NCBI GenBank assembly: GCA_902571005.1
Contig: CACGAG010000001.1
Span: forward strand, 40,449 to 104,448
Source of the DNA: an uncultured Pelagibacteraceae bacterium
GTDB taxonomy: Bacteria > Pseudomonadota > Alphaproteobacteria > Pelagibacterales > AG-422-B15
Direction: 5' to 3'
Length of the DNA stretch: 64,000 nt
Shown here: one piece after another, positions 3,772 to 27,513 of the stretch
Layout: every line of letters begins with the position of its first letter
Numbering within the stretch: position 1 is the first letter of the stretch
Made by a program: the position numbers and the translations under genes
The notes under the pieces: generated by a model
Database searches by the model: none
The model's input: the letters and a program-made list of their open reading frames with translations, nothing else
Told to the model about the DNA's origin: nothing

Positions 3772-6338
3772 TTTTCAACAACAATGTTAAGTATTTTATT
3801 TGGAACATAGATTGATTTTAATATATTTTTTCCCGATAAGGCGTCTGTTATGTTTTTGATATTTTTAATTTCTTTTTCAACCTCTTTTTCTGATGTATCT
3901 TTTGAAACAATAACTTCTCCACGCCGTTTACCATTTATCTGAATGACAACAGTTACCTCTTTATTTTCTAAATACTTTGTGTTTGTTGTTGGCCAAGGCT
4001 CGTCCATAATTGATTTATTTTTTCCAACTACTGACCAACATTCTTCAGCCAGGTGAGGAACCATTGGCTCGATTACTCTAATTAGGATGTGCAATGCCTC
4101 ATTCATTGCCTCCTTGCCTTCCTCATCTTCTATCTGAAATTTAGAAATTGCGTTAACTATCTCAAAAACTTTTGCAATTGAGACATTCATTTGAAATTTC
4201 TCAATGCTCTGAGTTATGGCATGAAGGTTTTGATGAATAATTCTTATAAAATCTAGCGATTTTCCCTGATATGTTTTGTCATTACTGTTTGTTGTTTGTT
4301 TAAGGTTTTTCCTATTATTTTGAACAATCGTCCAAATTTTCTGACAAATCTTCCAAGCCCCATTAATACCCGAGTCCGTCCAATTAATGTCTTTTTCAGG
4401 GGGACTGTCAGATAACATAAACCATCTTGCTGAATCGGCTCCATATGTACTTATTATTGATTCAGGATCAATTACGTTTTTCTTTGATTTCGACATCGAT
4501 TCAATTTCTCCCATAGTAACCTGTTTACCAGTGGATATTTGAAAATACTTAGAGTTTTTCTTCTCTACATCATCAGGATAAACCCAGGCATCAGACTCAT
4601 TTTGAAACGTGTGATGACAAACCATGCCTTGTGTAAATAGGCTATCAAAAGGCTCATCCATTCCTTTGATGCTGAGTGCTTTAGTAAAAAATCTAGAGTA
4701 CAATAAATGTAGAATAGCATGCTCAACACCGCCAACGTATTGATCGACTGGCATCCAATAATTAATTTCATCTAAGTTAAAGGGCTCTTTTGTCTCAAGC
4801 GGTGAACAAAATCTCAAAAAATACCATGCTGAGTCGACAAAAGTATCAAGCGTGTCTGTTTCTCTGATAGCATTCATTCCTGTTTCAGGACACTTTGTGA
4901 ATTTCCACTCTGGATGATTGTTAAGAGGATTACCGGGTATGCTTAAATCAATATCATCTGGCAATTCTAATGGCAGTTGGTCCTCAGGGACTTCAATTAC
5001 CTTACCGTCTTCTCTATACATAATTGGAATTGGGCATCCCCAATATCTTTGCCGAGAGACACCCCAATCGCGTAACCTAAAGTTCGTAGTTTTCTTTCCA
5101 ATATGAAGTTCTTCCACTCTTTTGATGATTTCTTTCTTAGCTTCTTCAATAGATAGACCATTTAAAAATTGAGAATTAATAAGTTTACCACTTCCAGTGT
5201 AAGCAGTTTTTTTATCAAGTTCGATATTGTCAGATGGATTTATCACTGGGATAATTTCTAAATTATATTTATTAGCAAAATCTAAGTCTCTTTGGTCATG
5301 CGCAGGACAACCATAAATAGCTCCAGATCCATAATCCATTAAGATGAAGTTTGCTATAAAGACTGGAAGTAATTTATTCTCAATAAAAGGATGTTTAATA
5401 AATAGCTCTGTCGGAACGCCAACTTTCTCGTTTTTGGCTATCGATTCTTCGCTTATTTTATGTGATCTTAATTCATTGACTTGATTATTAAGGGTTTCAC
5501 TTTGTTTTATTAACCTGTCCACAAAGGGATGAAAGGGAGACAAAGCACAAAAAGTAGCTCCAAAAATGGTGTCAGGACGAGTCGTAAATATTCTTAACTT
5601 TTCATTATTGAATTCATCTAATTTTGAAGAAATAACAAAATCAATTTCACATCCAAAAGATTTTCCAATCCAATTTTTTTGCATTATTCTGACTTTTTCT
5701 GGCCATCCAGACATATCATCCAAAGCTTTAAGAAGGCTTTCCGCATAGTCAGTAATTTTAAAAAACCATTGAGAAAGTTTCTTTTGTTCTACCTCAGCTC
5801 CTGATCGCCAACCTTTACCATCAATAACTTGTTCGTTTGCAAGCACCGTATTTTCAACTGGATCCCAGTTCACTAGCGACTCTTTTTTGTAAATTAAATT
5901 TTTTCGGTAAAATTTTAAAAAAAGTTTTTGTTGGTTTTGATAATAAAGTTTGTCACATGTTGCAATTTCTCTAGACCAATCAATTGAAAGACCCATTTGC
6001 TTTAATTGATTTTTCATCGTCTCAATATTTTCATAAGTCCAAGTTTTTGGAGAAGTTTTATTTTCTATTGCCGCATTTTCAGCTGGCAAGCCAAATGCGT
6101 CCCACCCCATTGGATGCATCACGTTAAATCCTTGAGCTCTTTTGTACCTTGCAATTACATCCCCCAATGTATAATTGCGGACGTGCCCCATGTGAATTTT
6201 TCCGGAAGGGTACGGAAACATTTCAAGTATGTAATATTTTTTTTTATTTTTATCTATCTTGCATTCAAATAACTTATTTTCAGACCAATAAGATTGCCAC
6301 TTCTTTTCAATAATTTTTGAATTATATTTTTCTGACAT
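3768..6338 (-). CDS. leuS: Leucine--tRNA ligase
   Basis: 856 aa. Class I aaRS motifs '[15 protein letters not shown]' (HIGH) and 'KMSKSKKN' (KMSKS). Full-length LeuS architecture. Confidence 0.97.
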
Positions 6339-21710: not shown

Positions 21711-23651
21711 CTACTTGTTCATTCGATTTTCAACAAGATCATTAACCACAGCTGGTTCTGCTAATGTAGATGTATCACCTAAATTACTGTAATCATTTTC
21801 AGCAATCTTTCTTAAAATTCTTCTCATAATTTTTCCTGATCTGGTTTTTGGAAGTCCGGGTGCCCATTGAATTAAATCTGGTGATGCGATTGGACCAATT
21901 TCTTTACGAACCCATGCAACAAGTTCTTTATATAATTCGTCTGATGTTTCTTCACCTGCATTGAGCGTAACGTACGCATAGATACCTTGCCCTTTAATAT
22001 CATGAGGGTAACCAACAACCGCTGCTTCACTAACTTTAGGATGTGCAACGAGAGCAGACTCAACTTCTGCTGTTCCCATTCTGTGACCAGATACATTTAT
22101 AACATCATCCACTCTTCCAGTGATCCAGTAATAACCATCTTCATCTCTTCTGCAGCCATCACCAGTAAAATATTTTCCATCAAATTGTGAAAAATACGTT
22201 TCAATGAACCTTTTATGATCTCCGTAAACTGTTCTCATTTGTCCAGGCCATGAGTCCGCTAAACAAAGCGAACCCTCGCATGCACCTTCAAGAATTTTTC
22301 CTTCTGCATCTAAAATTTCTGGCTTTACTCCAAAGAAAGGTTTTGTTGCTGACCCTGGTTTTTGCGCAATGGCTCCTGGAAGAGGTGTTATTAAAATACC
22401 TCCAGTTTCAGTTTGCCACCATGTGTCAACAATCGGACATTTTTTGTCACCAACGACATTATAATACCACATCCACGCTTCTGGATTGATTGGCTCGCCG
22501 ACTGTCCCAAGTAGTTTTAGAGAGGACCTGCTGGTTTTTTTAACAGGATCTTCGCCTTCTCGCATTAATGCCCTAATTGCAGTTGGTGCAGTATAAAAAA
22601 TATTAATTTTGTGTTTATCGACTACTTCCCAAAATCTTGAGGCACTTGGATAGTTTGGGACACCTTCAAACATCACAGTGACAGCCCCATTTGCTAATGG
22701 ACCATATACAATGTAACTATGTCCTGTAACCCAACCTACATCTGCGGTGCACCAATAAACGTCACCCTCTTTATAATCAAAGACATATTGATGTGTCATG
22801 GAAGCATAAACCATATAACCACCAGTGGTGTGCATAACTCCTTTTGGTTTGCCAGTTGATCCAGATGTATACAATATAAAGAGAGGATCTTCTGCTGACA
22901 TTTCCTCAGGGGGACAATTATCAGATTCTTTTTCAGTTAGCTCATGATACCAAACATCTCTTTCATCAACCCAGGCAATATCCCCGCCAGTTCTTTTAAC
23001 AACAATACAATGACGTACACCACCTGAAATCGAAATGGCTTCATCCGTATTTTTCTTTAATGGAATTGCTTTACCGCCTCTTACTCCTTCATCTGCTGTG
23101 ATCACAATATCAGATTTACAGTCACTTATTCTTCCAGCTAACGAGTCTGGAGAAAAGCCTCCAAATACAACAGAATGAATTGCCCCAATTCTTGTACATG
23201 CTAGCATTGCGTAAGCCGCTTCAGGAATCATTGGCATATAAATAGTTACACGATCACCTTTTTTAACTCCAAGAGACTTCATGCCGTTAGCAAGTTTTGA
23301 TACCTCACTGTGTAATTCTTTATAAGATATGTGTTTTGAATCTGCTGGATCATCGCCCTCCCAAATGATTGCGGTTTGATCTCCTTTATCTTTTAAATGT
23401 CTATCAATACAGTTGCTTGATGCGTTGAGTGTACCGTCGTAGTACCACTTGATTGAGAAATTATCTTTATTGTAAGAAACATCTTTTACTTTTGTATACG
23501 GTTTAATCCAATCAATTCTTTTACCGTGCTCACTCCAGAATTCTTCATTGTTATTGAGAGAATTTTCATACCATTCATTATATTTATCTGCATTAATCTG
23601 TGCCTCTGCAGACCATTCACTGCTCACTTCAAACTTTTCATTTTCACTCAT
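21711..23651 (-). CDS. acs: Acetyl-CoA synthetase
   Basis: 646 aa. AMP-binding motif '[13 protein letters not shown]', 'WWQTETGG' and C-terminal '[16 protein letters not shown]'. Confidence 0.97.
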
Positions 23652-23663
23652 AAGGAAATTATT

Positions 23664-24080
23664 TTATTTGATACCGCCGAGATTGCAAATAATTGTCCAC
23701 GACTTTTTATCAATTGGCATAACCGAGAGGCGCGACTGTTTAACCAAGGCTAAGTGATTGAGTTTTGGATGCTCTTTTATTTGAGATAAGTTTACTTTGT
23801 TTTTAAGGGCCTTTACAGCTGCGACGGATACCATGCCAAAACGCTTTGATTTGTCTGTAGGATCAGGATGATATTTCTTAACGACTTTTACTATACCAAC
23901 AATATCCCTTTCTTTGACCGAGTGATAAAAAAAACAAAGATCTCCTTTCTCCATTTTTTTCATATTATTGGATGCTTGGTAGTTTCTGACGCCATCCCAG
24001 CCCTCACCTTTACTGCCGGCTTTCACCTGTTGTTCCCACGACCATGTTTCAGGTTCAGATTTCATTAACCAGTAGTTCAT
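23664..24080 (-). CDS. EVE (PUA-like) domain protein
   Basis: 138 aa. 'MNYWLMKSEPETWSW', 'WDGVRNYQASNNMKKMEKGDLCFFYHS' and 'IVGIVKV' form the canonical EVE/Thy28-like pattern. Confidence 0.85.
   Translation of the reverse strand: MNYWLMKSEPETWSWEQQVKAGSKGEGWDGVRNYQASNNMKKMEKGDLCFFYHSVKERDIVGIVKVVKKYHPDPTDKSKRFGMVSVAAVKALKNKVNLSQIKEHPKLNHLALVKQSRLSVMPIDKKSWTIICNLGGIK
24060..24080. repeat. Outer direct repeat, left copy (21 bp)
   Basis: TTTCATTAACCAGTAGTTCAT. On the minus strand this is ATGAACTACTGGTTAATGAAA, codons 1-7 of the EVE gene. Identical to 27493-27513. Confidence 0.9.
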
Positions 24081-24152
24081 CTAATTGTTTCTCCAATGTT
24101 TACGCCATTTTTGAATCATTGGACTTTCATTTTCCTTGGTTTTTTTAAAACA

Positions 24153-24177
24153 CGTACAACACAAAGTACTACACATT
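24153..24177. repeat. Inner direct repeat, left copy (25 nt, tandem GTACWACACA)
   Basis: CGTACAACACAAAGTACTACACATT. 23/25 identical to 27368-27392. Ends 2 nt before the hsdS-like stop codon. Confidence 0.8.
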
Positions 24178-24179
24178 TA

Positions 24180-25577
24180 TTAATTATAAAAATCTTTAAA
24201 ATTTATTTCCTCATCAATATATTTAATTATTTTTTCAGTTAAAGTTTTCTTTTTGGATAATAAATCAAAACTCTGTTTAACTTTTTTAGAAATAAAATCA
24301 TGAAACTTTTTATCAGACAGAGGAATCTCAAACTGTTTAATTCTATTCGCAAGGGTTGGAATAGTCGATTGAATTACAGTATTTTTTTTAAATTGTACTT
24401 CGCCTATAAATTCAGAAAGTAAACAACCAAAAATATAAAATTGTGAAATATCTGATTTATTTTTAATTTTTAAAGAACGTATGTGACTTTGAAAAACATA
24501 ATCAGTATTCGTGAGAATAGATGGAATTCCAACTTTTCCATCATTATTGATAATAAGATCATATTTATCGAATTTATTATTCTGTAATTTTTTAAAATTT
24601 TTATCACAGAAAAAATCAGGAATTAAATCAACTTGATTATTATATATGTCAGATGTTCTGATAAATGGTAAACTATCATCAGATTTTTCTGTATAAATTT
24701 CATAATTAATACTTCCAATCTCATCACCTTTTATTGGATCGATGTAATTATCTAATTTTACAATCTTATATTTTTTTTTAATATGAGCCTTAATTTTATC
24801 CCAAGTGGGATCAAAAAAAGTAGCATTCCATATATTTGAATCTTTCATATTATTAATTTCGGCAGAAAAAATATTAATTTTCTCGAATAGTTTGTCATCT
24901 AATTTAAAATAATCTCTAAAATTTTTCTTAGTTGCATCAATTGAATTTAAAAATTTTTTTTCAATTTTTATTATTTCTAAAAGAATATCAGCAAGAATTT
25001 TTTGTTTGTTCATCTTCAATAATGGTATTTTAAATTTTTTTAATTTATTCAATGAAACCAAACCTTGATTATTTCCTCCACTACTAGAGTATGTTTGGAT
25101 TTTTGAAAAAAAGGACATAAAGAAGCAAGTTAAATACTCTGGCAAGATTTTTGATGAATTCGTTTTTATATATGCAATATTTCTTGGAAGAGAGGTTGTA
25201 TATTTGACATAATCTTTAAAAATTGCTGTTAAACCAACGGTTCCAACTACAGATAAAAGTACAGTATCATTATCAAGAATTTTATTTTTAAATTTGTCGC
25301 TGTCCAATTTAGATAAAAATATATTATCTCTTACATCTATAATTCCATTTTTTAAATTATGTACATATAGGTACTTTATTTCACCATCTGTTATGGGTTT
25401 AACACCAGTATGAATTCCATCACTAACCAGTGGAAAATATTCAGTATTTCCAAGGTTTATAAATTTTATATTTGATTTATTTAAAAATTTATCTCTTGCT
25501 TTAAGAAAATGAAAATATCTAGGATTAAATCTTTTTTCCTGAATTATCGAATTCAAATCAATCTCGAAGTGATTCAT
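24180..25577 (-). CDS. Restriction-modification specificity subunit (HsdS-like, two target-recognition domains)
   Basis: 465 aa. Two halves each have a variable region followed by a conserved helical spacer ('LNKLKKFKIPLLKMNKQKILADILLEI...' and 'LANRIKQFEIPLSDKKFHDFISKKVKQSFDLL'). ATGA overlap with the upstream methylase gene. Confidence 0.8.
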   Translation of the reverse strand: MNHFEIDLNSIIQEKRFNPRYFHFLKARDKFLNKSNIKFINLGNTEYFPLVSDGIHTGVKPITDGEIKYLYVHNLKNGIIDVRDNIFLSKLDSDKFKNKILDNDTVLLSVVGTVGLTAIFKDYVKYTTSLPRNIAYIKTNSSKILPEYLTCFFMSFFSKIQTYSSSGGNNQGLVSLNKLKKFKIPLLKMNKQKILADILLEIIKIEKKFLNSIDATKKNFRDYFKLDDKLFEKINIFSAEINNMKDSNIWNATFFDPTWDKIKAHIKKKYKIVKLDNYIDPIKGDEIGSINYEIYTEKSDDSLPFIRTSDIYNNQVDLIPDFFCDKNFKKLQNNKFDKYDLIINNDGKVGIPSILTNTDYVFQSHIRSLKIKNKSDISQFYIFGCLLSEFIGEVQFKKNTVIQSTIPTLANRIKQFEIPLSDKKFHDFISKKVKQSFDLLSKKKTLTEKIIKYIDEEINFKDFYN

Positions 25578-27322
25578 TGCTTACTCCATTGTAAAAACTT
25601 CTTTGTAATTATTGGTAAATCATCTTCATCAATTAGATCACCCCTTCTATTGTGACCACAAAATTTTGCAATAGACATGAAAACTTTATAATTTTTTTTT
25701 GGATTACTTGTTTTTTTAAAAATAAGAACACTTGTTTTGGTTGTTGTATGTGGAGCAAATGCTTCTATAGGAATATCAATTATTGCTAGAAGTTGGCCAT
25801 GCCTAATTAAATAATCTCTTATATAAGACATTTTATCGTTACCAAAAATTCCGTCTGGCAAGACTATACCAAGTCTTCCACCTTCCTTAAGCAATTCAAA
25901 ACATCTTTCAATAAACAATATTTGTGGAACCTCATCTTTTTTTAATGAACCTCTAACAAATTTTCCAGCTTTATCTTTTTTTCTCATATATCCAAATTCA
26001 TACTGTGATAGTATTTCTTTATTGGAGATTTTCATTTTAGAACCAAAGGGTGGATTAGTAATAATTATATCAAATTTTTCAGGCTGAACTTCGATTTTTG
26101 TTTTTGATTGCCATTCGCTAAATTTAACTAAAGAGTTTTCACAAAACACTCCAGATCTCCCATCTCCCAAGAGTGCCATATATGCTTTTGCAACCTTACT
26201 TAAAAAATTATCTTTATCTATTCCTCTGATATTTTTAATAGCAATTTTTTGTTTCTCAGCCTCAATTTGTGACTCTGGCCATTTTAACATTGATCCATTT
26301 TTTTCTATTTTATTCCATTGGTATTTTAGGGTTTCTACAAGAAAACCACCACTACCACATGCTGGGTCTAAAACTAATTCATCTTCATTTGGATTTATCA
26401 TTTCTACAATCATTCTAATCACATTTCTTGGTGTAAAAAATTGCCCTTGCCCCCCTTTTAATGAAGGTCCAATAAATACTTCAAAAGCATCAGCAATTGC
26501 ATCTCTAGAAGAATCTGAAAGACTAAATCTTTGTATTTCTCCTACCACAAACGCTAAAGAAATTTTATCCAGAGTTATTTTGTCGTTTTTATCTATTACA
26601 TCATCAAATTTTTTTACAACCTCTTCAAAAATCTTCAAAATTCTATCTTTCACTACTTTTGGATCTTCATCAGTTCCCAATCTAAACTTTGGTGCATCCT
26701 CAGGTTTAGTAAATCTTTCATCATATATTTTACAAAAAATTAAATTAATCATTTGTTGAGCAAGAACTTCATCTCTTGTTGCTCCAACTACATTAGGTGC
26801 TAAAAAATTTCTAATTGTTTTAAATAGTGTTTTTAGATTTCTTGCTGGCTTTAGATCTTTTCTTTTAAAATTACCTATATCTTCTAGTCGTTCACCATAC
26901 TTAGGAAAAGCAGGTAATTCATTGTAGAAAACCTTACCTTTTGAATAAGTTTTGTGTAATATAAATTTTTCTTCACCATTAAACCAAATTCCAATACTCG
27001 CATCTGAAAATTTTAAATAATCTTTAAGTTGTTTTATGCCAGATTTTTTATCAGGTTGTTTGCATTCAACTACTATTTCTAAATCTTCGTCCTTTTTTTT
27101 TGAATTTTTAAATATAGCAATATCAACAGGGTAACTTGATTTTTCTGCTGATGGTCTTTCCCTTACCCTATATTGCGGTCTAGTTTGTATATTTGCTATA
27201 GGATAATCGTAATCTTCCACTAAAATTTTTGAAAATGGTTGGGTCGCCTCTCTTTCCTCTGGAGTATTTTTTACTTCAACACCACTGATAAAATCGATAA
27301 TTATTTTATCATTTTTTGCCAT
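25574..27322 (-). CDS. Fusion of N-terminal PD-(D/E)XK (HsdR_N-like) nuclease domain and gamma-class N6-adenine DNA methyltransferase
   Basis: 582 aa. N-terminus 'YPVDIAIFKNSKKKDEDLEIVVECKQP' gives D...E-x-K. SAM motif I 'VLDPACGSGGFLV' and catalytic motif IV 'IIITNPPFG'. 'GQFFTPRNVIRMIVEMI' is typical of the N6_Mtase/HsdM family. Confidence 0.85.
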   Translation of the reverse strand: MAKNDKIIIDFISGVEVKNTPEEREATQPFSKILVEDYDYPIANIQTRPQYRVRERPSAEKSSYPVDIAIFKNSKKKDEDLEIVVECKQPDKKSGIKQLKDYLKFSDASIGIWFNGEEKFILHKTYSKGKVFYNELPAFPKYGERLEDIGNFKRKDLKPARNLKTLFKTIRNFLAPNVVGATRDEVLAQQMINLIFCKIYDERFTKPEDAPKFRLGTDEDPKVVKDRILKIFEEVVKKFDDVIDKNDKITLDKISLAFVVGEIQRFSLSDSSRDAIADAFEVFIGPSLKGGQGQFFTPRNVIRMIVEMINPNEDELVLDPACGSGGFLVETLKYQWNKIEKNGSMLKWPESQIEAEKQKIAIKNIRGIDKDNFLSKVAKAYMALLGDGRSGVFCENSLVKFSEWQSKTKIEVQPEKFDIIITNPPFGSKMKISNKEILSQYEFGYMRKKDKAGKFVRGSLKKDEVPQILFIERCFELLKEGGRLGIVLPDGIFGNDKMSYIRDYLIRHGQLLAIIDIPIEAFAPHTTTKTSVLIFKKTSNPKKNYKVFMSIAKFCGHNRRGDLIDEDDLPIITKKFLQWSKQ

Positions 27323-27367
27323 ATATTTAATTCTAACAAATCAAATTAAATTTATCTAAGAAAAAGT

Positions 27368-27392
27368 CGTACTACACAACGTACTACACATT
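27368..27392. repeat. Inner direct repeat, right copy (25 nt)
   Basis: CGTACTACACAACGTACTACACATT, which is GTACTACACA twice with a 2-nt spacer. Lies 45 nt upstream of the methylase start codon. Confidence 0.8.
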
Positions 27393-27492
27393 CGCTGATT
27401 TTAAATAGCTTTAATCGACATTTTTAATTGTAAAGATAAGGTAAAGGTTAGTGGGAGTCGGTAGAGTCTTAACGATGTATCACAAGTGTTGG

Positions 27493-27513
27493 TTTCATTA
27501 ACCAGTAGTTCAT
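27493..27513. repeat. Outer direct repeat, right copy (21 bp); orphan 5' fragment of the EVE gene
   Basis: TTTCATTAACCAGTAGTTCAT, beginning 1 nt after the gpsA stop. On the minus strand it opens only MNYWLMKPTLVIHR* (27472-27513). Confidence 0.9.

What the first reader, a model, noticed from the sequence alone, without database searches (positions are those of the whole stretch)
24180..27322. Nuclease-methyltransferase fusion plus separate two-TRD S subunit and no HsdR: candidate two-subunit Type IIB (BcgI-like) enzyme
- **Fusion protein.** The 582-aa protein carries an N-terminal PD-(D/E)XK motif (VD...EIVVECK, HsdR_N-like). It is fused to a complete gamma-class N6-adenine methyltransferase (VLDPACGSGG, ITNPPFG).
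- **Specificity subunit.** It overlaps by ATGA a 465-aa HsdS-like protein with two target-recognition halves.
- **What is missing.** There is no SF2 helicase/translocase (HsdR) gene in the cassette or anywhere in the window.
- **Comparison with known systems.** BcgI-type Type IIB systems combine cleavage and methylation in subunit A and use an HsdS-like subunit B. Classical Type I systems need HsdR.
- **Inference.** This is either a compact IIB-like restriction enzyme or an M+S-only (orphan) system. In a minimal genome, either one is a notable investment.
Basis: partly seen in the sequence, partly recalled or inferred. Interest (0 to 1): 0.6.

Follow-up and report, generated by a model that had tools for sequence, protein, structure and literature searches.

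The report
Mobile BcgI-like restriction cassette in SAR11
A two-gene restriction-modification module (a nuclease-methylase fusion plus a DNA-recognition subunit, with no motor subunit) was inserted very recently as a 3.4-kb cassette into a tiny marine SAR11 genome; the enzyme type is already known, but the recombinase-free "slot" that carries it is less ordinary.

Summary
A 582-aa protein (25574-27322, minus strand) joins an HSDR_N_2 PD-(D/E)XK domain to a gamma-class N6-adenine methyltransferase. It overlaps (ATGA) a 465-aa two-TRD HsdS-like gene. The 1.26-Mb genome has no HsdR.

The Type IIB (BcgI-like) reading is the best explanation (about 0.7).
- The closest solved structure by sequence and fold is RM.BsaXI.
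- D67, E86-x-K88 and Q98xxxY102 are essentially invariant in 80 species genomes from many phyla.
- The nuclease domain has the lowest dN/dS of the protein.
- No helicase or other third gene is conserved next to the pair anywhere.
- True MADS MAD2 proteins sit in multi-gene operons and have lost these residues, which gives a natural contrast.

The pair belongs to a very large, mobile family annotated only as "N-6 DNA methylase", so it is a new member of a known kind.

The context is more unusual. The genes lie in a 3,412-nt element inserted at the start codon of an EVE-domain gene, with a perfect 21-nt duplication. The element is 99.2% identical in a SAR11 genome of another family. Its conserved frame holds other cargo, including two other R-M systems, in other SAR11 genomes. 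It encodes no recombinase. Cleavage and methylation remain untested.

The parts
25574..27322 (-). RM subunit, 582 aa: nuclease, helical connector, gamma-class N6-adenine methyltransferase and a C-terminal helix
   Evidence: ORF. Pfam HSDR_N_2 plus N6_Mtase. AF2 model with pLDDT 85.4. Best PDB relative is RM.BsaXI by sequence (E 9e-31) and by fold (E 1e-25 over 657 columns).
26903..27322 (-). N-terminal PD-(D/E)XK (RecB/HsdR-type) nuclease domain, residues 1-140, with E22/E23, D67, E86-C-K88 and Q98xxxY102
   Evidence: These residues are invariant in A1 and in 78-80 of 80 species genomes. The domain model has pLDDT 91.8 and alpha-beta-beta-beta-alpha-beta topology. dN/dS is 0.028 against the 85% relative, the lowest of the three regions. 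Fold hits are restriction-endonuclease-like folds but weak (best E 0.025).
26513..26902 (-). Multi-helical connector, residues about 141-270
   Evidence: Helices 164-263 in the model. This region is aligned to BsaXI from residue 162. BsaXI and BcgI RM subunits are described as R, helical connector and M (PMC11997821).
25574..26512 (-). Gamma-class m6A methyltransferase (motif I DPACGSGGF, motif IV NPPFG) and a lone C-terminal helix at residues 568-581
   Evidence: Pfam N6_Mtase. Invariant motifs. Helix H568-581. BcgI and BaeI RM subunits have a lone C-terminal helical tail (text; Table S2).
24180..25577 (-). S subunit, 465 aa, with two target-recognition halves
   Evidence: Two Methylase_S stretches. 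Full-length matches to Specificity_I and mad5 models. Colinear with the S partners of homologs at 29-42% identity.
27493..27513 (-). Upstream copy of the 21-nt direct repeat, a pseudo-start of the EVE gene (ATGAACTACTGGTTAATGAAA)
   Evidence: Perfect repeat. The empty site in 9 relatives aligns without gaps when one copy is removed.
27415..27492 (-). 78-nt frame spacer, conserved 77-97% in 13 of 401 Pelagibacterales genomes
27362..27414 (-). Inner direct repeat R (tandem TGTGTAGTACG units), where frame conservation ends and cargo begins
24147..24199 (-). Inner direct repeat L, 79% identical to R, overlapping the S stop codon
24081..24146 (-). 66-nt frame linker that supplies a GGAG ribosome-binding site (and a 12-codon mini-ORF) in front of the EVE gene
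   Evidence: Sequence. 86-89% conserved in L066.
24060..24080 (-). Downstream copy of the 21-nt repeat, the true first 7 codons of the EVE gene
23664..24080 (-). EVE-domain gene (138 aa), a core SAR11 gene and the insertion target, not part of the R-M system
   Evidence: Present in 39 of 41 relatives regardless of the cassette. Not adjacent to the family outside SAR11.

Best explanation
The two genes most likely encode a self-sufficient, ATP-independent restriction-modification enzyme of the BcgI/BaeI/BsaXI design (Type IIB, also filed under Type IIG).

Inferred mechanism:

1. Two RM subunits assemble on one two-TRD S subunit through the C-terminal helix of RM and the conserved regions of S.
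2. S reads a bipartite site.
3. Each RM methylates the adenine of its half-site with AdoMet, which protects host DNA.
4. On unmethylated DNA, the N-terminal PD-(D/E)XK domain (D67, E86, K88, helped by E22/E23 and Q98/Y102) cuts at a fixed distance, reaching the DNA across the helical connector. By analogy this occurs on both sides of the site and after two complexes come together.

What is shown: the domain architecture, intact and strongly constrained catalytic motifs, full-length homology to BsaXI, the absence of any translocase or other conserved partner, and recent horizontal spread.

What is inferred: (RM)2S stoichiometry, nuclease activity, double-sided cleavage and the recognition sequence.

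The genes travel inside a 3,412-nt element that inserted at the start codon of the EVE-domain gene with a 21-nt duplication. They probably rely on transcription reading through from gpsA.
For: Architecture: Pfam HSDR_N_2 plus N6_Mtase, and a two-TRD S.

Homology: RM.BsaXI is the top PDB hit by sequence (9e-31). By fold it is the top hit over the whole length (1e-25, 657 columns), whereas Type I HsdM structures cover only the methylase. BsaXI's essential nuclease residues E73, D90, E105 and K107 form the same E...D...ExK pattern (PMC11997821). The RM subunits of BcgI (637 aa) and BaeI (626 aa) have the same R-connector-M-tail layout.

Catalytic residues are conserved: D 78/78, E 79/79, K 79/79, Q 78/79 and Y 80/80 across 80 species genomes of Bacteria and Archaea.

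Selection: nuclease-domain dN/dS is 0.028, against 0.061 for the connector and 0.098 for the methylase.

Autonomy:
- 49 of 50 split-form loci have S directly downstream, and 30 loci have a fused R-M-S form.
- None of the 20 nearest large flanking ORFs is an HsdR.
- Four detailed neighbourhoods show only the pair.
- The own genome lacks HsdR or Res.

Natural contrast: MAD2 proteins in MADS operons, which have a NERD-kinase, MAD7 and a giant protein, have lost E86, Q98 and Y102 in 20 of 20 sequences.

Selfish or defence behaviour:
- Clean insertion.
- 99.8-100% identity to G005 against flanks of 88-95%.
- 99.2% identity to G375 although its tsaD is only 53% identical.
- The same slot carries complete Type II R-M systems in other genomes.
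Against: - No biochemical, methylome or expression data exist.
- The isolated nuclease domain finds no significant PDB match by sequence, and only weak fold matches (best E 0.025, none at or below 1e-3).
- I could not compare directly with BcgI or BaeI sequences, and no REBASE search was available.
- The S subunit (465 aa) has Type I size and is larger than BcgI's B subunit.
- MAD2 shows that this domain can persist without catalytic residues, so it also has some non-catalytic role.
- C-protein-like HTH genes are rare next to the family (about 4 of 80 loci).
- Marine SMRT surveys detected no bipartite m6A motifs in pelagic MAGs (PMC8919816), although cassette carriers are rare (2 of 61 relatives).
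Confidence: 0.7

Rival explanations
1. Solitary M2S methyltransferase. The pair only methylates a bipartite site, for an epigenetic or anti-restriction role. The N-terminal domain would serve DNA binding or regulation and would not cut DNA.
For: Every public annotation calls the protein 'N-6 DNA methylase' or 'subunit M'. MAD2 keeps the same domain without catalytic residues, so a non-catalytic role exists. Most marine methylases are orphans (PMC9516812). Fold matches of the isolated domain are weak.
Against: The complete D...ExK...QxxxY set is near-invariant across phyla. The domain has the lowest dN/dS of the protein. The residues decay exactly where other effectors exist. The full length is homologous to an active Type IIB enzyme. 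The cassette behaves like a mobile R-M unit and shares its slot with complete R-M systems.
Confidence: 0.17
2. Fragment or variant of a multi-gene MADS-type system. RM and S would be the MAD2/MAD5 module, and restriction would need other, unlinked effectors.
For: The best curated family hits are MADS2 (418 bits) and MADS5 (93 bits), and PADLOC mad2 and mad5 models also match. In MADS, MAD2 plus MAD5 methylate a bipartite site while other genes restrict (preprint 10.1101/2023.03.30.534895).
Against: Both scores are far below the cutoffs of 720 and 400. The element is a clean two-gene insertion between housekeeping genes. Neither the four detailed neighbourhoods nor any of the 20 large flanking ORFs that were scanned showed a MADS partner. 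True MAD2 proteins differ in that they have lost the catalytic residues.
Confidence: 0.05
3. Classical Type I system whose hsdR lies in the unassembled part of the genome or was recently lost.
For: The assembly is 91% complete in 23 contigs. M and S have Type I-like size and fold.
Against: Type I HsdM has no N-terminal nuclease domain. No member of the family has an adjacent hsdR: four neighbourhoods were examined in full and the 20 nearest large ORFs in the 80 loci were scanned. The identical element in G005 and G375 is also only two genes. All SF2 helicases in the genome are housekeeping proteins.
Confidence: 0.03

Closest known systems
BcgI and BaeI (Type IIB / multimeric Type IIG; organisation 2 R~gammaM + S1~S2; Loenen et al. 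2014, PMC3874165)
   Same: A two-gene system. The RM subunit has an N-terminal PD-(D/E)XK nuclease, a helical connector, a gamma-class m6A methylase and a lone C-terminal helix (637 and 626 aa, against 582 aa here). There is a separate two-TRD S subunit and no translocase.
   Different: This S subunit (465 aa) has Type I size. Cleavage geometry, the need for two sites and AdoMet dependence are unknown for this family.
BsaXI (Type IIB; PDB 8w0p, 8w2p, 8w2q; PMC11997821)
   Same: Best solved relative by sequence (E 9e-31 over residues 162-539) and by fold (E 1e-25 over the full length). It forms an (RM)2S assembly. Its essential residues E73, D90, E105 and K107 have the same pattern as E22/23, D67, E86 and K88.
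   Different: BsaXI RM is 916 aa and has 'knob' and 'paddle' insertions that take part in cleavage. The protein here lacks both. Overall identity is about 20%.
HaeIV (single-chain 2 R~gammaM~[TRD], Type IIB/IIG)
   Same: The fused members of this same family (807-901 aa: HSDR_N_2, N6_Mtase and one Methylase_S domain) have the HaeIV organisation listed in PMC3874165.
   Different: The window holds the split form. Relatedness to HaeIV itself was not tested here. It is only a lead from an earlier AI note.
MADS MAD2/MAD5 (methylation-associated defence system of Pseudomonas aeruginosa)
   Same: The nearest curated family models. They are homologous over the whole RM length, including the N-terminal domain, and pair with an S subunit. 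MAD2 plus MAD5 methylate a bipartite site.
   Different: Scores are far below cutoff. MADS is an operon of about eight genes with other effectors. MAD2 has lost E86, Q98 and Y102, while this family keeps them and stands alone.
Type I HsdM/HsdS (EcoKI, EcoR124I)
   Same: The methylase fold, the expected M2S assembly logic, and a two-TRD S with conserved regions. The D...ExK...QxxxY nuclease motif set is the one known from HsdR (established knowledge of EcoR124I HsdR).
   Different: The nuclease is fused to M instead of to a helicase, and there is no HsdR or ATP-driven translocation.

Membership tests
Type IIB (BcgI-like) RM+S restriction-modification enzymes | One polypeptide carries both a PD-(D/E)XK nuclease domain and a gamma-class N6-adenine methyltransferase | tested here: met
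   Pfam HSDR_N_2 plus N6_Mtase. Motifs are invariant. Model topology fits.
Type IIB (BcgI-like) RM+S restriction-modification enzymes | A separate HsdS-like subunit with two TRDs, encoded next to RM | tested here: met
   ATGA-overlapped 465-aa S with two Methylase_S stretches. An S gene lies directly downstream in 49 of 50 split-form loci.
Type IIB (BcgI-like) RM+S restriction-modification enzymes | No ATP-dependent translocase subunit | tested here: met
   No HsdR or Res in the genome and none next to family members.
Type IIB (BcgI-like) RM+S restriction-modification enzymes | Homology to a biochemically characterized Type IIB enzyme | tested here: met
   RM.BsaXI is the top PDB hit by sequence (9e-31) and by fold (1e-25 over the full length). 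The nuclease domain alone gives only weak matches.
Type IIB (BcgI-like) RM+S restriction-modification enzymes | Cleaves both strands on both sides of a bipartite site, excising a short fragment, and methylates both half-sites | not testable with these tools
   Needs enzyme assays and a methylome.
Type I R-M system | HsdR subunit (nuclease plus SF2 translocase) that works with M2S | tested here: not met
   TIGR00348 gives no hit above 15 bits. All ResIII hits are RecG, UvrB, Mfd, PriA, FtsY or Ffh.
MADS (MAD2/MAD5 equivalogs) | Scores above the curated NCBIfam cutoffs for MAD2 (720 bits) and MAD5 (400 bits) | tested here: not met
   417.9 and 92.7 bits.
MADS (MAD2/MAD5 equivalogs) | Embedded in a multi-gene mad operon (kinase/NERD, MAD3/4, MAD7/8) | tested here: not met
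   A two-gene insertion between gpsA and the EVE gene. True MAD2 loci L136 and L137 have NERD-kinase, MAD7 and a giant gene. A whole-genome search for MAD7 could not be run because the family is not in the tool's library.
Orphan (solitary) DNA methyltransferase | No cognate nuclease activity, so the nuclease motifs should be degenerate or absent | tested here: not met
   D67, E86, K88, Q98 and Y102 are intact and near-invariant. dN/dS is 0.028. Activity itself was not tested.

The most novel reading that the evidence does not exclude
The R-M genes may be cargo of an undescribed, recombinase-free cassette carrier of SAR11. The carrier is a conserved frame made of a 78-nt spacer, an inner repeat, the cargo, a second inner repeat and a 66-nt linker.

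- It sits exactly at the start codon of the core EVE-domain gene with a 21-nt duplication.
- It occurs in two Pelagibacterales families.
- It is more conserved than the surrounding core genes.
- It exchanges cargo at the tandem-decamer inner repeats. Cargo seen so far: this RM+S, a divergent RM'+S', two m5C Type II systems, surface autotransporters and unknown small genes.

This could be a site-specific mechanism that uses a host or trans-acting recombinase, or a Campbell-type circle that recombines at the 21-mer. The alternative is plain homologous recombination in a hypervariable spot.

A related idea: MADS may have evolved from such an autonomous Type IIB-like RM+S module by inactivating its nuclease and recruiting other effectors.
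Probability: 0.3. Interest if true: 0.65.

Novelty: new member of a known kind. Interest (0 to 1): 0.4.

Why it matters
- **Annotation.** A very large family is labelled only as a methylase although it carries an intact, strongly constrained nuclease. The family has about 7,000 clusters at 90% identity, occurs in at least 584 species genomes, and is found on plasmids and in prophages. Counts of 'orphan' methylases and of complete R-M systems, especially in marine surveys, are probably biased by this.
- **SAR11 biology.** These streamlined genomes are thought to carry few defences. Here a complete restriction system moved almost unchanged between two SAR11 families and between two species of one genus. 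That points to active exchange of defence genes and gives a concrete locus, the gpsA/tsaD-EVE junction, to follow in populations.
- **Evolution of defence systems.** The contrast between nuclease-intact stand-alone pairs and nuclease-dead MAD2 in MADS operons suggests how a multi-gene system could be built on a Type IIB-like core.
- **Tools.** Type IIB enzymes are useful reagents (2b-RAD), and this family is a large untapped source of specificities.

Tried and rejected
- C-protein argument. Two of the first four neighbourhoods had a small HTH gene, but a seeded search found such genes in only about 4 of 80 loci. I dropped it as evidence.
- Promoter and terminator scan of the cassette: no more sites than in shuffles.
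- Rfam and tRNA scans of the frame: nothing.
- The N-terminal domain against PDB, as a single sequence and as a profile: no significant hit. The domain-only fold search gave only weak restriction-endonuclease-like hits.
- The first dN/dS calculation for L105 and L106 was wrong because an indel shifted the codon register. I redid it with a protein-guided codon alignment.
- Contexts of P0244 and P0191: the contigs were too short. This was solved with the homologs P0273 and P0283. The context of the MAD2-like proteins that keep the motif (P0191, P0235) remains unknown.
- EVE protein as a system partner: rejected. It is a core gene in 39 of 41 relatives, and outside SAR11 it is absent next to family members.
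- Inner repeats as Xer/dif-like sites: by eye there is no inverted-arm symmetry. This was not tested further.
- PF26611 (MAD7) is not in the genome-search library.
- No motif-depletion analysis was attempted, because the cassette arrived too recently for avoidance to evolve.
Full report
**1. Observation**

The first, 25574..27322 (minus strand), encodes 582 aa. The second, 24180..25577 (minus strand), encodes 465 aa. They overlap in an ATGA.

Pfam finds HSDR_N_2 at residues 26-137 (46 bits, above the cutoff of 25) and N6_Mtase at residues 272-579 (132 bits). The second protein has two Methylase_S stretches and matches two-TRD Type I specificity models over its full length. The quoted motifs are present: PVD67, E86-C-K88, DPACGSGGF 319-327 and NPPFG 423-427. 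In addition, a Q98xxxY102 motif follows the ExK. The D...ExK...QxxxY set is the nuclease motif set known from HsdR and RecB-type nucleases (established knowledge).

**2. No translocase**

The window lies in a 1.26-Mb assembly of 23 contigs that is 91% complete. It belongs to a Pelagibacterales (SAR11) lineage: its relatives in the same order include named Pelagibacteraceae single-cell genomes.

- The hsdR model TIGR00348 gives only a 15-bit hit.
- The six ResIII hits are RecG, UvrB, Mfd, PriA, FtsY and Ffh.
- This is the only N6_Mtase gene in the genome.

**3. What the pair is related to**

The best curated family models are the MADS proteins MAD2 (418 bits, cutoff 720) and MAD5 (93 bits, cutoff 400). 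The pair is therefore related to them but is not a member.

Among solved structures, the best sequence match is the Type IIB enzyme RM.BsaXI (E 9e-31, residues 162-539). An AlphaFold model built on 30 homologs (pLDDT 85, pTM 0.77) again finds BsaXI first (E 1e-25), aligned over 657 columns, which is the whole protein. Type I HsdM structures cover only the methylase part.

The model shows four parts:
- an N-terminal alpha-beta-beta-beta-alpha-beta domain;
- a helical connector;
- the methylase;
- a lone C-terminal helix (residues 568-581).

This is the layout described for the RM subunits of BcgI (637 aa) and BaeI (626 aa) (PMC11997821; PMC3874165). In BsaXI, mutagenesis showed that E73, D90, E105 and K107 are essential for cleavage. 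The protein here has the same pattern.

**4. Is the nuclease likely to be active?**

Direct comparisons of the isolated domain are weak.
- It has no significant PDB sequence match.
- Its own model (pLDDT 91.8) finds restriction-endonuclease-like folds first (3ijm, 9y1l, BpuSI, DrdV, EcoR124I HsdR), but with E-values of 0.025 or worse.

The evolutionary evidence is strong.

| Measure | Result |
|---|---|
| D67 conserved in 80 species genomes | 78/78 |
| E86 conserved | 79/79 |
| K88 conserved | 79/79 |
| Q98 conserved | 78/79 |
| Y102 conserved | 80/80 |
| dN/dS, nuclease domain (vs 85% relative) | 0.028 |
| dN/dS, connector | 0.061 |
| dN/dS, methylase | 0.098 |

The 80 genomes come from many bacterial phyla and several archaeal lineages.

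A natural control exists. Proteins that pass or approach the MAD2 cutoff belong to a clade that sits in operons of the form MAD2, S, NERD-protein kinase, MAD7 and a giant protein (loci L136 and L137). In 20 of 20 such sequences the glutamate of the ExK motif is replaced by V, S, A, I or M, and the QxxxY motif is gone. The homologous domain therefore decays where other effectors are present. It stays invariant where it is the only candidate nuclease. This is inference, not proof, but it is the best computational discriminator available.

**5. The family and its autonomy**

- The protein has about 7,000 relatives at E <= 1e-10 among 90%-identity clusters. Many share 55-63% identity over the full length across Firmicutes, Bacteroidota, Cyanobacteria, Actinobacteria, Methanobacterium and DPANN archaea.
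- Among 50%-identity representatives there are 886 clusters at E <= 1e-30.
- At least 584 species genomes encode a relative.
- Of 80 loci examined, 50 have the split form, and 49 of those have an S gene directly downstream (47 overlapping or within 14 nt). The other 30 have a fused protein of 807-901 aa that carries one Methylase_S domain, which is the HaeIV-type organisation.
- The 20 nearest large flanking ORFs are unrelated genes: PutA, PBP1, a TonB receptor, ThiC, RecG, GmrSD, an SF1 helicase and others. None is an HsdR.
- Four neighbourhoods examined in detail show only the pair, one of them inside an integrative element.
- The family also occurs on 21 plasmids and in a few prophages, always annotated as 'N-6 DNA methylase'.

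The absence of HsdR is thus a property of the family and not a loss in a minimal genome.

**6. How the cassette arrived**

The genes lie in a low-GC element (27.1% against a genome average of 33.1%). A perfect 21-nt direct repeat bounds it (24060-24080 and 27493-27513). This repeat equals the first seven codons of the downstream EVE-domain gene.

Joining the two flanks with one repeat copy gives a sequence that aligns without gaps over about 767 nt to nine cassette-free relatives at 89-93% identity. The event was therefore a clean 3,433-bp insertion between the gpsA stop codon and the EVE start codon.

- Only 2 of 61 relatives carry the RM gene.
- The second carrier, G005, is 88-95% identical in the flanks but 99.8-100% identical from about 23,500 to 27,500.
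- G375 (the single-cell genome AG-917-E05) belongs to another family. Its tsaD is 53% identical and its EVE 69% identical at protein level, and its upstream neighbour is tsaD instead of gpsA. It still carries the same element.
- In G375, identity begins exactly at 27513 and is 99.2% down to 24081. It then falls to about 72% inside the EVE gene.

**7. A frame with exchangeable cargo**

Inside the 21-mers lie a 78-nt spacer, a 53-nt inner repeat made of tandem TGTGTAGTACG units, the cargo, a second inner repeat (79% identical to the first), and a 66-nt linker that supplies the ribosome-binding site for the EVE gene. The decamer GTAC[AT]ACAC[AT] occurs only 7 times in the genome, and 4 of those are in these repeats.

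The frame's upstream segment occurs in 13 of 401 Pelagibacterales genomes, in two families, at 77-97% identity. Conservation stops exactly at the inner repeats. The cargo differs between genomes:

| Genome or locus | Cargo |
|---|---|
| G000 (this window), G005, G375 | This RM+S pair |
| AG-910-L19 (L066) | Divergent RM'+S' (56% and 28% identity) plus a 134-aa ORF |
| G269 (L126) | C5 methylase plus an unknown 405-aa protein |
| G194 (L132) | C5 methylase plus an NgoFVII-type PLD endonuclease |
| G227, G300 (L129, L133) | Autotransporter-like proteins (Pfam-confirmed for L129, with a lectin domain) |
| G221 (L127) | EEP-family nuclease plus two unknown ORFs |
| G166, G345 (L125, L128) | Small genes of unknown function |
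| G079 (L130) | Four ORFs, not scanned against family models |

No recombinase, tRNA or known RNA family lies in the frame. In most genomes the pseudo-start copy of the 21-mer has diverged from the true EVE start, and in one it contains a stop codon. Here the two copies are identical, which fits a recent arrival. Whether the cargo moves by site-specific recombination or by homologous recombination between frames is open.

**8. Comparison with what is known**

[quoted passage not shown] BsaXI is its nearest solved relative.

- It is not a Type I system, because it has no HsdR.
- It is not a MADS member: scores are below cutoff, there is no operon, and the nuclease is intact.
- Its S subunit has Type I size.

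The defining biochemical feature of Type IIB, double-sided cleavage, could not be tested. Marine methylome surveys report no bipartite motifs and very few S genes in pelagic MAGs (PMC8919816), which fits the rarity of carriers.

Earlier AI notes in this scan called relatives of this family BcgI/BsaXI/HaeIV-like ordinary mobile R-M enzymes. That agrees with my reading but is not independent evidence.

**9. Verdict**

- The Type IIB-like interpretation is supported at about 0.7.
- Novelty: a new member of a known kind, from a large, under-annotated family.
- The more unusual points are the very recent transfer between SAR11 families, the recombinase-free frame with exchangeable and R-M-rich cargo at the EVE start codon, and the contrast between nuclease-intact pairs and nuclease-dead MAD2.
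- Interest: 0.4.

Noticed in passing
window 24081-24199 and 27362-27513; loci L066, L124-L133: A conserved 'frame' (21-nt pseudo-EVE start, 78-nt spacer, inner repeat, cargo, inner repeat, 66-nt linker) occurs in 13 of 401 Pelagibacterales genomes in two families. It holds at least seven different cargos, and four of the cargo types are R-M systems. No recombinase is encoded.
   Followed up: partly
L066:6550-6954; L126 (2185-2520) and L132 (1811-2218) in oriented coordinates: A small ORF of 111-135 aa (MQLELFDYRRD...), with no Pfam hit for the one copy tested (L066), sits just after the upstream inner repeat in three different R-M cargos (RM'+S' and two m5C systems). It is absent from this window's element. 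It could be a regulator or a frame-associated gene.
   Followed up: partly
proteins P0244, P0271-P0384; loci L136 and L137: True MADS MAD2 methyltransferases keep the HSDR_N_2-like N-terminal domain but have lost the ExK glutamate and the QxxxY motif in 20 of 20 sequences. Their operons read MAD2, S, NERD-kinase, MAD7 and a giant protein. This suggests that MADS was built on a nuclease-inactivated Type IIB-like core.
   Followed up: partly
L105:2538-2737 and 5855-6011; L106:1305-1504: The 76%-identical marine relatives of the cassette lie next to tRNA genes. In L105 the tRNA 3' end is duplicated on both sides. These cassettes are bracketed by their own short direct repeats (GTGTGGCGTATNTGTGCC), so they are a different vehicle with a similar layout.
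   Followed up: no
window 24084-24122 (minus strand): The 66-nt linker contains a 12-codon mini-ORF (MIQKWRKHWRNN*) whose stop codon abuts the EVE ATG. It is conserved in L066 (MIQKWRKDWRNN*). It may couple translation of the EVE gene after the insertion.
   Followed up: no
L009 (G020), L010 (G053), L011 (G035): Three other SAR11 genomes encode proteins of 809-823 aa whose methylase part is 33-34% identical to this RM. They may be a different single-chain R-M enzyme in the clade.
   Followed up: no
L052:4967-12952: In a Bacteroides MAG the RM+S pair is flanked by a GmrSD Type IV nuclease and an SF1 (AAA_30/UvrD_C_2) helicase protein, which is a typical defence island.
   Followed up: no
plasmid and phage records H1-H14: Homologs on Spiroplasma citri plasmids, other plasmids and a few prophages are annotated only as 'N-6 DNA methylase' or 'type I ... 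methyltransferase'. Standard annotation does not flag the nuclease domain.
   Followed up: no
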